Shown piece after piece: positions 27,869 to 40,113 of a stretch of 64,000 nucleotides of DNA. The position numbers and the translations under genes are program-made. This stretch comes from Escherichia phage a48, in sequence record OQ067375.1. One strand, 5' to 3'. How positions within the stretch are numbered: position 1 is the stretch's first letter; every line of letters begins with the position of its first letter. The notes under the pieces are model-generated. The model worked only from the letters and a program-made list of their open reading frames with translations. It was not told where the DNA came from and ran no database searches.

Positions 27869-28450
27869 CTAACCGAGCTTTTTAGTTAATTCATTCCAAT
27901 GTTTTCTACACAAAGAAACATAAATTTCATCACCAATACAGATTTGATTACCTTCTTTAACTGGTGTTCCATCTTCCATTAATCGAGCTGTCATAATCGC
28001 TTTTTTGCCGCAATGACAAACTGCCTTTAGTTCAATAAGTTTATCTGCAATCGCTAAAAGTTCTTTAGAACCTTCAAACAATTTTCCAGCGAAATCAGTC
28101 CTTAATCCATAAGCCATAACAGGAACATTATATGTATCAACAATTCGACTTAATTGATGCACCTGTTCAGTTTTTAAAAACTGAGCTTCATCTACAAATA
28201 CGCAATGAATATCTTTTTGTGCTTCAGCCCATTTATAGAACTCGAAAATATCCATATCATCTGTAATAATATTCGCTTCCTGCTTAATTCCAATGCGAGA
28301 AACGACTTCACAGACAGAATCGCGAGTATCAATAGCAGGCTTAAGAACTAATACACTCATTCCACGTTCTTTATAATTATGTGCAGCAGTCAAAAGAGAA
28401 GCAGATTTTCCAGCATTCATTGCTGCATAAGTAAAAATTAAACTCGCCAT
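27869..28450 (-). CDS. tk: thymidine kinase
   Basis: 193 aa; P-loop AMNAGKSAS and C-terminal zinc-binding Cys pairs typical of type II thymidine kinase. Confidence 0.92.
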   Translation of the reverse strand: MASLIFTYAAMNAGKSASLLTAAHNYKERGMSVLVLKPAIDTRDSVCEVVSRIGIKQEANIITDDMDIFEFYKWAEAQKDIHCVFVDEAQFLKTEQVHQLSRIVDTYNVPVMAYGLRTDFAGKLFEGSKELLAIADKLIELKAVCHCGKKAIMTARLMEDGTPVKEGNQICIGDEIYVSLCRKHWNELTKKLG

Positions 28451-28459
28451 ATCACCTTC

Positions 28460-28645
28460 TTAAAGCGTATTCACATAAGCTATTAATTCGTTTTCTTTCT
28501 TATCAAACCGATCAGCAAATTCTTCTTGCTGATCGGGAGATAGCGGGCCATATTCATCATAAAAGGTGTTTGCTTCTGTATGCTCATCTAGAAGTTCATG
28601 GATAAGCTCAAACAATTTATCTTTTTGTTCTTTACTCAGACTCAT
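28460..28645 (-). CDS. small acidic hypothetical protein (tk.1 position)
   Basis: 61 aa ORF. Confidence 0.45.
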   Translation of the reverse strand: MSLSKEQKDKLFELIHELLDEHTEANTFYDEYGPLSPDQQEEFADRFDKKENELIAYVNTL

Positions 28646-28815
28646 ATATTAATTTCCAGGAGTTTTAAAATAATTCGCTTTTGCTTAAATATTTCCATAG
28701 TTAAATGACCAGTATCTTTTTGACCGATTCCAATGGCAAAACCTTTATTGACAGCGAGTTCAATTAAATTATCAAGCTCACGTAACACTTCATATTGTAA
28801 CTCAAAACTATTCAT
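28644..28815 (-). CDS. small hypothetical protein
   Basis: ~56-aa hand-found ORF (MNSFELQYEVLRELDNL...) with ATGA-type overlaps at both ends; boundaries approximate. Confidence 0.3.
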
Positions 28816-29018
28816 TTTGGTTTACCTTCTTTAACGAAATCGGGATAAGGATAAAATCCTGAATAAAATCCTTCACCTTTATGATTGATGCATCCTTTAT
28901 TAGAACAATAGCACCAATAATCGAAATCACAAGCCATTTCATCATTACATAAAGCAAAAACAACAGGCCATTTACACTTTTCACAATGTGCATTTTTAAG
29001 AATACTAGTTTGGCTCAT
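28812..29018 (-). CDS. small Cys-rich protein
   Basis: ~68 aa from MSQTSILKNAHCEKCKW...; nine Cys; start overlaps the upstream stop. Confidence 0.45.
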   Translation of the reverse strand: MSQTSILKNAHCEKCKWPVVFALCNDEMACDFDYWCYCSNKGCINHKGEGFYSGFYPYPDFVKEGKPK

Positions 29019-29227
29019 AACCATGTAACCTTTAAGCAATATTCTTCTACGTGCTGTTTACGACCTTTCTTATCAATAAAGGTATATTCAACGAATGTTC
29101 CAATATAGTCTTTATCTACATCATGCGGACTATTAATTGGGCATTTAGTACGGCAAATGCGTTCCCATTGACGAATAATTTCCGCTTTGTTTTTAGGGTC
29201 AAACGGATGCGGGTAATGTGCTTTCAT
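29015..29227 (-). CDS. small hypothetical protein
   Basis: 70 aa ORF. Confidence 0.45.
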   Translation of the reverse strand: MKAHYPHPFDPKNKAEIIRQWERICRTKCPINSPHDVDKDYIGTFVEYTFIDKKGRKQHVEEYCLKVTWL

Positions 29228-29678
29228 AATCCACCACTATTAAATCAATATCAGGAGTAAACATGTCGATTAATTTAGAAACCTTATCCCAATCACCGCC
29301 AGCAATACCGCAACCTATGCGTGGAATATAAATTACAGGTTTAAACAAAAGGGTTTCTGCCTGTAGATTTAATTCTATCATGCAGTTTACTAAAGCACCA
29401 TAATCAAGATTAGGACCCGGTTCGTATTGTGTATACAGGTTATAGCATATACCAAATCCTGTAGGATTATGTTTAAAAACAATAGACATATCGCCTAATT
29501 TATCACGAGAACCGTACTCGGTAGTGGTTTTATCTATTTCTAAAATTTTGGGATAGGCTCTTGCTAATTGACCTGCTACGCCAGAGCCCATTGTGTGGAA
29601 GCAATTACACCCGTGCGCAATAATATTACCTTGAAGAAATAGGGCGACAATATCGCCCTTGATATATTTTACAATCAT
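29199..29678 (-). CDS. macrodomain protein, TARG1/OARD1/DarG-like (ADP-ribose hydrolase candidate)
   Basis: 159 aa; N-terminal KGD...AHGCNCFHTMGSGVAGQ and C-terminal IPRIGCGIAGGDW match both conserved macrodomain boxes. Confidence 0.7.
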   Translation of the reverse strand: MIVKYIKGDIVALFLQGNIIAHGCNCFHTMGSGVAGQLARAYPKILEIDKTTTEYGSRDKLGDMSIVFKHNPTGFGICYNLYTQYEPGPNLDYGALVNCMIELNLQAETLLFKPVIYIPRIGCGIAGGDWDKVSKLIDMFTPDIDLIVVDYESTLPASV

Positions 29679-30016
29679 CTAGTACTCAATCCTCGATTAT
29701 AAGAATCTACTAAACGGTCAACCATTGAATGACAAGCGGCTTTGTCTTTCTCCTCCGCAACTGAACATTCTAAGGTATTCCACTTTTTAGCATATCGTTT
29801 TAACAATGTATCATTTTTATATCTGCTTGATTTATCTCTTTCTCCGTCTTTATATGCATATATTAATTTCTGCGCAAATTCAGCTTGACATGCTTTATTT
29901 TTCCCGCAATAATCCGCGGCAGTACGGTTTACATACTCTCTAATTTCAGTATATGATGTATTTGCTAACGCAGAAAATGAAATTAATCCTACACATAAAA
30001 CCAAAATTTTAGTCAT
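29675..30016 (-). CDS. secreted small protein (vs position in the T4 order)
   Basis: 113 aa; N-terminal signal peptide MTKILVLCVGLISFSALA; four Cys. Confidence 0.5.
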   Translation of the reverse strand: MTKILVLCVGLISFSALANTSYTEIREYVNRTAADYCGKNKACQAEFAQKLIYAYKDGERDKSSRYKNDTLLKRYAKKWNTLECSVAEEKDKAACHSMVDRLVDSYNRGLSTR

Positions 30017-30561: not shown

Positions 30562-31023
30562 TCATTGAGTTTTAATTACTGCTTTAGAAGCCTTTCCTGG
30601 TAAACGACGACTGTTAATAATTGCCATTCTACATTGAAGTGACGGGTCTTTGAACTTCTCATTAGGTTTACAAACTGTAAATCCAAGCCAAAGATTTCCA
30701 TCTGTGATTTCTAAACGTCCAGGACGATATTCAACCCCATCAATAAAATCCTCATCGATGTCAGGACGCGGAGGCATACTCAGGAATTCATTAACTTCTA
30801 AAACATGGTCTTTTATTTTGTGGAATAATTCAAAAACATATGTCTCATCAATCTCCCGTTGAATTGCACGATCAAGAAGATGCTGAGAATATTTTAGATG
30901 AAACGATGAGACTCCTGCTGCTTTTGATGCCTCACGAATCTCATTGTTAATTTGACGAAACTCCGACTCAAAGTGACGACGAAGCTTATTTCGACGGATA
31001 AAAACTTCAGTGTTGATAGTCAT
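30562..31023 (-). CDS. regB: RegB site-specific endoribonuclease
   Basis: 153 aa; sequence matches T4 RegB as recalled; strong early promoter immediately upstream. Confidence 0.88.
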   Translation of the reverse strand: MTINTEVFIRRNKLRRHFESEFRQINNEIREASKAAGVSSFHLKYSQHLLDRAIQREIDETYVFELFHKIKDHVLEVNEFLSMPPRPDIDEDFIDGVEYRPGRLEITDGNLWLGFTVCKPNEKFKDPSLQCRMAIINSRRLPGKASKAVIKTQ

Positions 31024-39314: not shown

Positions 39315-39980
39315 TTAAAATTTCATTTTTCGACCTTTAAACCATCCTTCTGGAATTGGGTCAGTTTTCTTAATACGTTTAGAAACTTTTTCATCTAATG
39401 AATGAATCCACATCATACCAAATTGGGAATTCTTTTCACCTTTCTGGTGATTATTTTTAGCGTGAATTTCTTTCATTTTATTAATAGTTTCAAGAGTATG
39501 ATGCTTATTTAAAAATCTGCTATTATTTAAAAATTTTTCCTTGTATTCAGGAGTTGACCATAAACGTTTAAATACATTTGAACCATTTTGACGATATTTT
39601 TCTTGAAGTAAAATATCATTTTTAAAACGTGACTTAAACGATTTAGCTCCTTTTAAACTAGCGTCTTTCTTCTGATTTAGCATCTCAGGAATATTTATAT
39701 GATCCCATCCACCTTCACCGCCAAGTTTTAAATTATACACATCTGGTCTATTTAAAAACTCTTCTGTGACAATATTTTTCTCGGCTTCAAGCATAGATTC
39801 TTTATCATCAAAATATTCTAATATTTCTTTAGAAAAATTTTCTATACCATACCGGTCTTGGGCTCTTTTTAATAATTTACCAGAACCCATATATCCATCA
39901 TCTAAATTTTCGGTAGAATGCACACCAATATAAATTTTATTATTAATTTTATTTGTTATTTTATAAAGATAAAAATGCAT
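39315..39980 (-). CDS. segB: GIY-YIG homing endonuclease SegB
   Basis: 221 aa from the ATG at 39978-39980; GIY-YIG motifs (FYLYKITN...KIYIGVH...YMGSG); embedded in the tRNA cluster as in T4. Confidence 0.8.
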   Translation of the reverse strand: MHFYLYKITNKINNKIYIGVHSTENLDDGYMGSGKLLKRAQDRYGIENFSKEILEYFDDKESMLEAEKNIVTEEFLNRPDVYNLKLGGEGGWDHINIPEMLNQKKDASLKGAKSFKSRFKNDILLQEKYRQNGSNVFKRLWSTPEYKEKFLNNSRFLNKHHTLETINKMKEIHAKNNHQKGEKNSQFGMMWIHSLDEKVSKRIKKTDPIPEGWFKGRKMKF

Positions 39981-40026
39981 ATCAGTCCTTAATAAAGAAC
40001 TGAGCGTCTCACGACGAGTCATAAAT

Positions 40027-40113
40027 TGGTGGGGAGTGGTGGAGTCGAACCACCCGAGTCGCAATGACAATGGATTTACAGTCCACACCGCTACCTCTAC
40101 GGGATAACTCCCC
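40027..40113 (-). tRNA. tRNA-Tyr (anticodon GUA), class II
   Basis: 87 nt: perfect acceptor GGGGAGU/ACUCCCC, anticodon loop CUGUAAA, long variable arm, T-loop UUCGACU, encoded CCA. Confidence 0.8.

What the first reader, a model, noticed from the sequence alone, without database searches (positions are those of the whole stretch)
29199..29678. TARG1/DarG-type macrodomain gene in the tk-regB early region
The 159-aa product carries both signature boxes of the TARG1/OARD1-type macrodomain: KGD...AHGCNCFHTMGSGVAGQ at the N-terminus and IPRIGCGIAGGDWDKV at the C-terminus. Enzymes of this family remove ADP-ribose from protein glutamate and, in DarG antitoxins, from ADP-ribosylated thymidine in DNA. 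A phage copy expressed early could neutralise a DarT-type ADP-ribosylating defence toxin or tune the phage's own ADP-ribosylation of host proteins. It sits in a run of tiny overlapping ORFs typical of anti-defence cargo.
Basis: partly seen in the sequence, partly recalled or inferred. Interest (0 to 1): 0.7.

Follow-up and report, generated by a model that had tools for sequence, protein, structure and literature searches.

The report
Phage T4 tk.4 (AdfM) macrodomain gene

Summary

The window is a T4-like phage (Tequatrovirus). The gene sits in the tk.4 slot between vs and tk.3. A November 2025 preprint (HIDEN-SEQ) showed that T4 tk.4 is the only T4 gene required on a DarTG2 host, and renamed it adfM.

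Three details are new here:
- **Divergent allele:** the protein is only 58% identical to T4 Tk.4, although the flanking genes are 94-100% identical. This looks like a gene-sized allele replacement.
- **Active site:** the catalytic lysine of DarG and TARG1 is an invariant glutamine in this family (255 of 255 sequences). SCO6735, which also cleaves thymidine-linked ADP-ribose from DNA, has the same glutamine.
- **Not a DarG:** it scores far below the DarG family cut-off, has no DarT-binding domain and no adjacent darT.

No member of the Tk.4 family has been tested biochemically.

The parts
29199..29678 (-). Macrodomain gene, 159 aa: an allele of T4 tk.4 (adfM).
29690..29694 (-). GAGGA ribosome-binding site, 11 nt upstream of the ATG. 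The ATG (29676-29678) overlaps the TGA stop of vs (29675-29677), giving an ATGA overlap.
   Evidence: Read directly from the sequence. The arrangement suggests translational coupling with vs; this is inferred.
29568..29618 (-). Loop 1, AHGCNCFHTMGSGVAGQ (residues 21-37). It contains H22, which aligns with Poa1p H23 and TARG1 H32, and N25, which aligns with SCO6735 N27, Taq DarG N22 and PhiKZ AdfM N23.
   Evidence: Alignments. N25 is present in 253 of 253 ungapped family members and H22 in 248 of 255. Mutating the equivalent Asn reduces activity in SCO6735 and in PhiKZ AdfM.
29427..29441 (-). NLYTQ (residues 80-84). Q84 occupies the position of the catalytic Lys of TARG1 (K84), Taq DarG (K80) and PhiKZ AdfM (K78), and of Gln85 of SCO6735.
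   Evidence: MAFFT and hhalign agree. Q84 is present in 255 of 255 family members. It lies at the end of strand E74-84 in the model. SCO6735 Q85A abolishes activity.
29280..29327 (-). Loop 2, IPRIGCGIAGGDWDKV (residues 118-133), the diphosphate-binding loop. G122 and G124 align with SCO6735 G126 and G128. A126 takes the place of TARG1 D125.
   Evidence: with SCO6735 numbering derived. The SCO6735 G128E mutant has reduced activity.
29199..29227 (-). 29-nt overlap with the start of tk.3. A 13-nt gap relative to T4 shifts the stop codon, so the protein ends ...VVDYESTLPASV.
   Evidence: DNA alignment with T4, translation, and low model confidence for the last residues.
29641..29659 (-). GC-rich hairpin AGGGCGATATTGTCGCCCT followed by a U-rich stretch, inside codons 7-13 of the gene. 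It resembles a terminator.
   Evidence: Terminator scan. The same element is annotated as a rho-independent terminator in phage ECML-123-2. It is conserved in T4 and a Dhakavirus but not in Karamvirus, Jiaodavirus or a Serratia phage. The fold z-score is only -1.56.
29675..30016 (-). Upstream neighbour vs (valyl-tRNA synthetase modifier), 96% identical to T4.
29015..29227 (-). Downstream neighbour tk.3 (DUF7202), 94% identical to T4.

Best explanation
The gene is the orthologue, as a divergent allele, of phage T4 tk.4, recently renamed adfM (anti-DarT factor, macrodomain). It encodes a stand-alone macrodomain of 159 aa. It is transcribed leftwards with regB, vs.1, vs and the tk cluster, and is probably translationally coupled to vs. 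The host DarT2 toxin attaches ADP-ribose to thymidines in single-stranded phage DNA and so blocks replication. This protein most likely binds the ADP-ribose through its two glycine-rich loops and hydrolyses the thymine-ribose bond, restoring replicable DNA. In effect it acts as an orphan antitoxin. The active site is not the lysine type of DarG and TARG1. It is the glutamine type described for SCO6735: Gln84, held by Asn25, positions the distal ribose, and water does the chemistry. What is shown: the fold, the orthology, the conserved residues, and the DarTG2 phenotype of the T4 gene (from the literature). What is inferred: that this 58%-identical allele has the same role, that the protein acts by hydrolysis, and that the SCO6735 mechanism applies.
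Against: No Tk.4-family protein has been assayed biochemically. The preprint itself says only that enzymatic removal 'seems likely'. This allele is just 58% identical to the tested T4 protein, so its specificity could differ. The long lysine-bearing mobile loop that SCO6735 is proposed to use for DNA binding is about six residues shorter here. SCO6735 Val25 is Gly23 here. The family has its own invariant residues, D49 and Y82, with no counterpart in SCO6735 or DarG. SCO6735 also removes ADP-ribose from proteins and inhibits DarT by binding, so hydrolysis of DNA adducts need not be the whole story.
Confidence: 0.72

Rival explanations
1. The protein neutralises DarT2 mainly by binding and inhibiting the toxin, not by hydrolysing the DNA adduct.
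For: Catalytically dead SCO6735 (Q85A), DarG (K80A) and TARG1 (K84A) all inhibit DarT in vitro, and SCO6735 is the strongest inhibitor. The T4 evidence is genetic only.
Against: The protein lacks the C-terminal DarT-binding domain of DarG: the DarG models match only their first 142-144 of 329-338 positions. The strict invariance of N25, Q84 and the glycine loops in 255 relatives points to selection for catalysis. PhiKZ AdfM, a stand-alone phage macrodomain, acts enzymatically.
Confidence: 0.07
2. Its main substrate is not DNA. It could remove ADP-ribose from glutamate or aspartate on proteins, whether host or phage ADP-ribosylation. Alternatively it could process small ADP-ribose derivatives such as ADP-ribose-1''-phosphate (as Poa1p does, hence the 'phosphatase' annotation), O-acetyl-ADP-ribose, or immune signalling nucleotides.
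Against: The only phenotype found for T4 tk.4 is specific to DarTG2. From general knowledge, the T4 transferases Alt, ModA and ModB modify arginine, a linkage TARG1-type macrodomains are not known to cleave. The 'phosphatase' label comes from the old A1pp domain name and not from any assay.
Confidence: 0.12
3. It reverses ADP-ribosylation of RNA, for example on uracil or on RNA ends, protecting phage transcripts and not phage DNA.
For: TARG1, DarG and SCO6735 all reverse uracil-linked ADP-ribosylation of single-stranded RNA in vitro.
Against: No bacterial defence that ADP-ribosylates uracil in RNA is known from the papers read here. The mRNA ADP-ribosylating system CmdTAC still defends strongly against T4, which carries tk.4. 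The DarTG2 phenotype is explained by DNA modification.
Confidence: 0.04

Closest known systems
T4 Tk.4 / AdfM (NP_049723; bioRxiv 10.1101/2025.11.20.689424)
   Same: It occupies the same genomic slot between vs and tk.3 and has the same length class (155 vs 159 aa). Identity is 58% and all family-invariant residues are shared: H22, N25, D49, N80, Y82, Q84, G122, G124 and W130. This is the protein with the genetic anti-DarTG2 phenotype.
   Different: It is a divergent allele. Nucleotide identity falls to 45-58% in the core of the gene while the flanks are 92-98% identical. Loop 2 reads GCGIAGGD here and GAGIGKGN in T4. The window protein has a four-residue longer C-terminus that runs into tk.3. 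This allele has not been tested.
SCO6735 (Streptomyces coelicolor, PDB 5E3B) and BT1257 (PDB 2AFC/2FG1)
   Different: Identity is only 25-28%. The mobile loop after the Gln is about six residues shorter and lacks Lys89. Val25 is Gly23 here. D49 and Y82 are specific to the phage family.
DarG antitoxin macrodomain (Thermus aquaticus 5M31/5M3E, M. tuberculosis 5M3I)
   Different: The catalytic Lys80 is Gln here. There is no C-terminal DarT-binding domain and no adjacent darT. The NCBIfam DarG score is 27.8 bits against a cut-off of 250.
PhiKZ gp104 'AdfM' (Cell Rep 2026, PMC13309987)
   Same: It is a phage-encoded stand-alone macrodomain that counters DarTG2. Activity on DarT2-modified DNA has been shown biochemically.
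   Different: It belongs to a different lineage. PhiKZ gp104 is a true DarG-type protein with Lys78: E 9.4e-25 to Mtb DarG and 132.9 bits on the PADLOC DarG model. The window protein scores 27.7 bits on that model and aligns to gp104 over only 33 residues in BLASTP. The two groups chose the same name independently.
Human TARG1/OARD1 (PDB 4J5S)
   Same: It is the best Foldseek hit, E 3e-10. H22 aligns with H32, and the PRIGCG motif is shared. TARG1 also reverses thymidine-ADP-ribose.
   Different: The Lys84/Asp125 catalytic pair is Gln84/Ala126 here. The TARG1 sequence used in that alignment was recalled from memory; the stretch covering D125 matches the PDB alignment printed, and the K84 position is independently supported by the three DarG-type sequences taken from tool outputs.

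Membership tests
Macrodomain (Pfam PF01661) | Sequence match above the curated threshold. | tested here: met
   33.1 bits against a cut-off of 22, covering positions 2-117 of the 118-position profile.
Macrodomain (Pfam PF01661) | Macrodomain fold. | tested here: met
Macrodomain (Pfam PF01661) | Binds ADP-ribose. | not testable with these tools
   Both glycine-rich binding loops are conserved. Binding itself needs an experiment.
TARG1-like / ALC1-like macrodomain class | Closest structural neighbours are TARG1, DarG, SCO6735/BT1257 or ALC1, not MacroD, PARG or viral X-domain types. | tested here: met
TARG1 / DarG lysine-type hydrolases | Catalytic lysine (TARG1 K84, Taq DarG K80). | tested here: not met
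   The position is Gln84 in MAFFT and hhalign alignments, and Gln in 255 of 255 relatives.
TARG1 | Asp125 of the Lys/Asp catalytic pair. | tested here: not met
   Ala126 in the window protein and Gly in T4 Tk.4.
DarG antitoxin (NCBIfam NF048014, PADLOC PDLC02990) | Whole-protein score above the curated cut-off, including the C-terminal DarT-binding domain. | tested here: not met
   27.8 bits against a cut-off of 250. Only positions 2-142 of the 338-position model are matched. PADLOC gives 27.7 bits over positions 3-144 of 329.
DarG antitoxin | Encoded next to a darT toxin gene. | tested here: not met
   The neighbours are vs and tk.3. A bacterial homologue is also stand-alone.
SCO6735/BT1257-like glutamine-type hydrolases | Gln at the catalytic position, held by the conserved Asn (SCO6735 Q85 and N27). 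| tested here: met
   Q84 and N25 align with Q85 and N27, and both are invariant in the family.
SCO6735/BT1257-like glutamine-type hydrolases | Val/Ile25 and the extended Lys-bearing mobile loop proposed for catalysis and DNA binding. | tested here: not met
   Val25 is Gly23 here. The loop after Q84 is about six residues shorter and has no Lys89 equivalent. The proposed role of Val25 is through its backbone, so the Gly need not be disabling.
SCO6735/BT1257-like glutamine-type hydrolases | Hydrolyses thymidine-linked ADP-ribose on single-stranded DNA. | not testable with these tools
   Requires an enzyme assay. The only support is the T4 DarTG2 phenotype.
AdfM of T4 (Tk.4) | Orthology: the same locus and significant full-length similarity. 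| tested here: met
   58% identity over 155 aa, E 1e-70. The gene lies between vs (96% identical) and tk.3 (94% identical).
AdfM of T4 (Tk.4) | Required for growth on DarTG2 hosts. | not testable with these tools
   Shown for T4 only. It is not known for this allele.
Poa1p-like ADP-ribose-1''-phosphate phosphatase | Catalytic His23 and Ser30 of Poa1p, and phosphatase activity. | tested here: inconclusive

The most novel reading that the evidence does not exclude
The gene-sized replacement of tk.4 by an allele only 58% identical, inside otherwise T4-identical flanks, may reflect arms-race diversification. The two allele types might neutralise different DarT2 variants or different ADP-ribosylated bases or nucleic acids, or one might escape a host factor that blocks the other. 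In addition, the Tk.4 family may use its own catalytic solution, different from both DarG and SCO6735. It has Gln84 and Asn25 plus the family-specific invariant residues Asp49 and Tyr82, and it lacks the long SCO6735 loop.
Probability: 0.15. Interest if true: 0.55.

Novelty: already known. Interest (0 to 1): 0.25.

Why it matters
The gene shows how a phage can carry an 'orphan antitoxin' enzyme that undoes a bacterial defence which chemically marks phage DNA. That principle has already been published for T4 tk.4 (genetically) and for PhiKZ gp104 (biochemically). The value of this window is therefore confirmatory. What remains useful is mechanistic. The T4-type family is predicted to use glutamine and not lysine chemistry, and nobody has tested this. 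The locus is also a hotspot of allele exchange, which could be used to ask whether allele type determines which DarT2 variants a phage can overcome.

Tried and rejected
- **Single-sequence structure prediction:** it failed (pLDDT 34). Only the alignment-based model was used.
- **T4 sequence in the structure job:** A database cluster representative of the same length and identity (P0015) was used in its place.
- **Filing the protein as a DarG:** rejected. It is far below the NCBIfam cut-off, lacks the C-terminal domain, has no darT neighbour, and has Gln in place of the catalytic Lys.
- **Treating it as the same family as PhiKZ 'AdfM':** rejected. That protein is a true DarG-type macrodomain.
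- **'Phosphatase' as a function:** this is an inherited label from the old A1pp domain name and is kept only as a low-probability rival.
- **Toxin-linked origin:** one bacterial homologue, from Pelagimonas, sits among housekeeping-looking genes with no DarT.
- **Conserved RNA element:** the hairpin in the 5' end of the gene is kept in Tequatrovirus and Dhakavirus only, and its folding z-score is unremarkable.
- **dN/dS between the two alleles:** not attempted, because nucleotide identity in the core of the gene (45-58%) suggests that synonymous sites are saturated.

Full report
An ATG-started ORF runs from 29678 down to 29199 on the minus strand and encodes 159 aa. The ATG overlaps the TGA of the upstream gene (ATGA), and a GAGGA lies 11 nt upstream. 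Thymidine kinase (27869..28450) and RegB (30562..31023) flank the region as stated. They are 99% and 100% identical to their T4 counterparts.

**It is a macrodomain of the TARG1/DarG neighbourhood.**
- Pfam Macro scores 33.1 bits against a cut-off of 22, covering nearly the whole profile.
- A single-sequence AlphaFold run failed (pLDDT 34). With a 52-sequence alignment the model reached pLDDT 95 and pTM 0.89.
- Foldseek against the PDB ranks TARG1 first (E 3e-10, TM 0.72-0.74), followed by BT1257, Poa1p and the DarG macrodomains.
- By sequence alone the order is BT1257 (1.6e-10), Poa1p (1.5e-9), SCO6735 (8.5e-8), Mtb DarG (4.8e-5) and TARG1 (about 0.01).

**The window is a T4-like phage and the gene is tk.4.** The DNA is 98.5% identical to many Tequatrovirus genomes. 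In T4 the slot between vs and tk.3 holds tk.4, a 155-aa protein annotated 'phosphatase; contains A1pp phosphatase motif'. The window protein aligns with it end to end at 58% identity, E 1e-70.

**The proposed function is already published for the T4 gene.**
- The HIDEN-SEQ preprint (bioRxiv 10.1101/2025.11.20.689424, November 2025) infected a DarTG2-expressing host with a T4 transposon library. tk.4 was the single significant hit.
- A clean knockout of tk.4 sensitised T4 to DarTG2.
- The authors noted structural similarity to the M. tuberculosis DarG macrodomain and renamed the gene adfM. They state only that enzymatic removal of ADP-ribose from DNA 'seems likely'.
- Earlier work had shown that T4 lacking adfA and adfN remains DarTG2-resistant, and had predicted a further factor.
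- Full-text searches for AdfM and for T4/phage macrodomain phrases found no other study of T4 Tk.4.
- A 2026 paper gave the same name, AdfM, to PhiKZ gp104 and proved its activity on DarT2-modified DNA in vitro.

**The active site is the glutamine type, not the DarG/TARG1 lysine type.** I recovered the DarG, BT1257 and SCO6735 sequences from PDB search alignments and PhiKZ gp104 from the paper. I then aligned them with the window protein.
- MAFFT and profile-profile alignment agree that Gln84 sits where TARG1 has Lys84, Taq DarG has Lys80 and PhiKZ AdfM has Lys78.
- TARG1 Asp125 corresponds to Ala126 here.
- SCO6735 and BT1257 have Gln at the same place as the window protein.
- Asn25 matches SCO6735 Asn27 and DarG Asn22.
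- Among 255 relatives, down to 38% identity, Gln84 is present in all 255 and Asn25 in all 253 ungapped sequences.
- SCO6735 hydrolyses thymidine-linked ADP-ribose made by DarT. Its Q85A mutant loses all activity and N27S almost all. The Gln is proposed to position the distal ribose while a backbone-held water acts (PMC9411070).
- The profile comparison slightly favours SCO6735/BT1257 (probability 99.2, E 1.6e-19) over DarG/PhiKZ gp104 (98.7, E 4.3e-16).

The best-supported mechanism is therefore SCO6735-like hydrolysis of DarT2 adducts. There are differences from SCO6735. Its lysine-bearing mobile loop is about six residues shorter here, and Val25 is Gly23. The phage family also has its own invariant residues, Asp49 and Tyr82, of unknown role.

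**It is not a DarG, and it is a different lineage from PhiKZ AdfM.**
- The NCBIfam DarG model gives 27.8 bits against a cut-off of 250 and matches only its N-terminal 142 positions.
- The PADLOC DarG model gives 27.7 bits for this protein and 132.9 bits for PhiKZ gp104.
- PhiKZ gp104 hits Mtb DarG at E 9.4e-25, against 4.8e-5 for the window protein.
- There is no darT next to the gene. A bacterial homologue, from Pelagimonas, is also stand-alone among unrelated genes.

**The locus is mosaic.** The identities to T4 are as follows.

| Feature | Identity to T4 |
|---|---|
| Tk (protein) | 99% |
| Tk.3 (protein) | 94% |
| Vs (protein) | 96% |
| Vs.1 (protein) | 100% |
| RegB (protein) | 100% |
| Macrodomain protein | 58% |
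| vs (nucleotide) | about 96% |
| First 60 nt of the macrodomain gene | about 85% |
| Core of the macrodomain gene (nucleotide) | 45-58% |
| Inside tk.3 (nucleotide) | 88-97% |

- A 13-nt gap at the 3' junction moves the stop codon. The ORF therefore overlaps tk.3 by 29 nt and gains a low-confidence tail.
- A second variable patch replaces T4 tk.1 and tk.2 with three other small ORFs.
- Phage ECML-123-2 appears to combine the T4-type macrodomain allele with the window-type run of small ORFs, judging by ORF sizes, so the two patches seem to assort independently.
- In the phage collection, 275 records carry an allele at least 95% identical to the window's, and there is a continuum of more distant alleles.
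- The family has 1579 cluster representatives at E<=1e-10.

**Rival explanations are less likely.**
- Inhibition of DarT2 by binding is possible, because dead SCO6735 does this. However, the strict conservation of catalytic-site residues argues for catalysis.
- A protein or small-molecule substrate, as in the old 'phosphatase' label, cannot be excluded without assays. The only known phenotype is specific to DarTG2.
- Reversal of RNA ADP-ribosylation is biochemically plausible for this class. However, CmdTAC, which ADP-ribosylates mRNA, still defends against T4.

**Verdict.** The allele in this window is common in sequenced phages and is already annotated there as a macro-domain protein. The residual interest lies in the untested glutamine-type mechanism and in the allele replacement. 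Interest is scored 0.25.

Noticed in passing
window 29199-29678 compared with L002:6923-7390 (T4): The gene is a cassette-like allele replacement. The macrodomain gene is 58% (protein) and 64% (nucleotide) identical to T4, while the flanking genes are 94-100% identical. The junctions lie about 40-100 nt inside the 5' end of the gene and at the tk.4/tk.3 boundary.
   Followed up: yes
window 28460-29018 (-): T4 tk.1 and tk.2 are replaced by three small ORFs joined by 4-nt overlaps: 28460..28645 (61 aa, DUF7438, 28% identical to Tk.1), 28642..28815 (57 aa, phrog_3452) and 28812..29018 (68 aa, cysteine-rich, Pfam Phage_zn_bind PF23895). Their functions are unknown.
   Followed up: partly
window 29641-29659 (-): A GC-rich hairpin followed by a U-rich stretch lies inside codons 7-13 of the macrodomain gene. 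The same element is annotated as a rho-independent terminator in phage ECML-123-2. It is conserved in T4 and a Dhakavirus but not in more distant T4-like phages. It might attenuate transcription entering tk.4 from vs.
   Followed up: partly
window 40027-40113 (-): ARAGORN calls an extra tRNA-Tyr (anticodon GTA) between the segB-like ORF and tRNA-Ile. T4 has no tRNA at this position. The Rfam tRNA score is only 30.3 bits against a gathering score of 29. The mechanical ORF 39315..40088 overlaps it, so the real segB start is probably further downstream.
   Followed up: partly
Literature: T4 Tk.4 and PhiKZ gp104: Two groups independently named different proteins 'AdfM'. T4 Tk.4 is a glutamine-type, SCO6735-like macrodomain. 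PhiKZ gp104 is a lysine-type, true DarG-like macrodomain. The two align over only 33 residues in BLASTP.
   Followed up: yes
window protein residues D49 (nt 29532-29534) and Y82: Asp49 and Tyr82 are invariant in all 255 family members examined. At these positions SCO6735 and DarG have Tyr (for D49) and Ile or Pro (for Y82). Their role is unknown, and their position relative to the active site could not be measured.
   Followed up: no
P0002 (Shigella phages SHFML-11 and SHFML-26): Some GenBank records annotate this gene as a 130-aa protein starting at Met30. That start would remove the first strand and the H22-N25 active-site loop, so it is probably mis-called.
   Followed up: no
L004 6001-6459 (Pelagimonas phthalicica chromosome): A bacterial homologue, 40% identical, is a stand-alone gene among housekeeping-looking neighbours, with no DarT or other transferase nearby.
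   Followed up: partly
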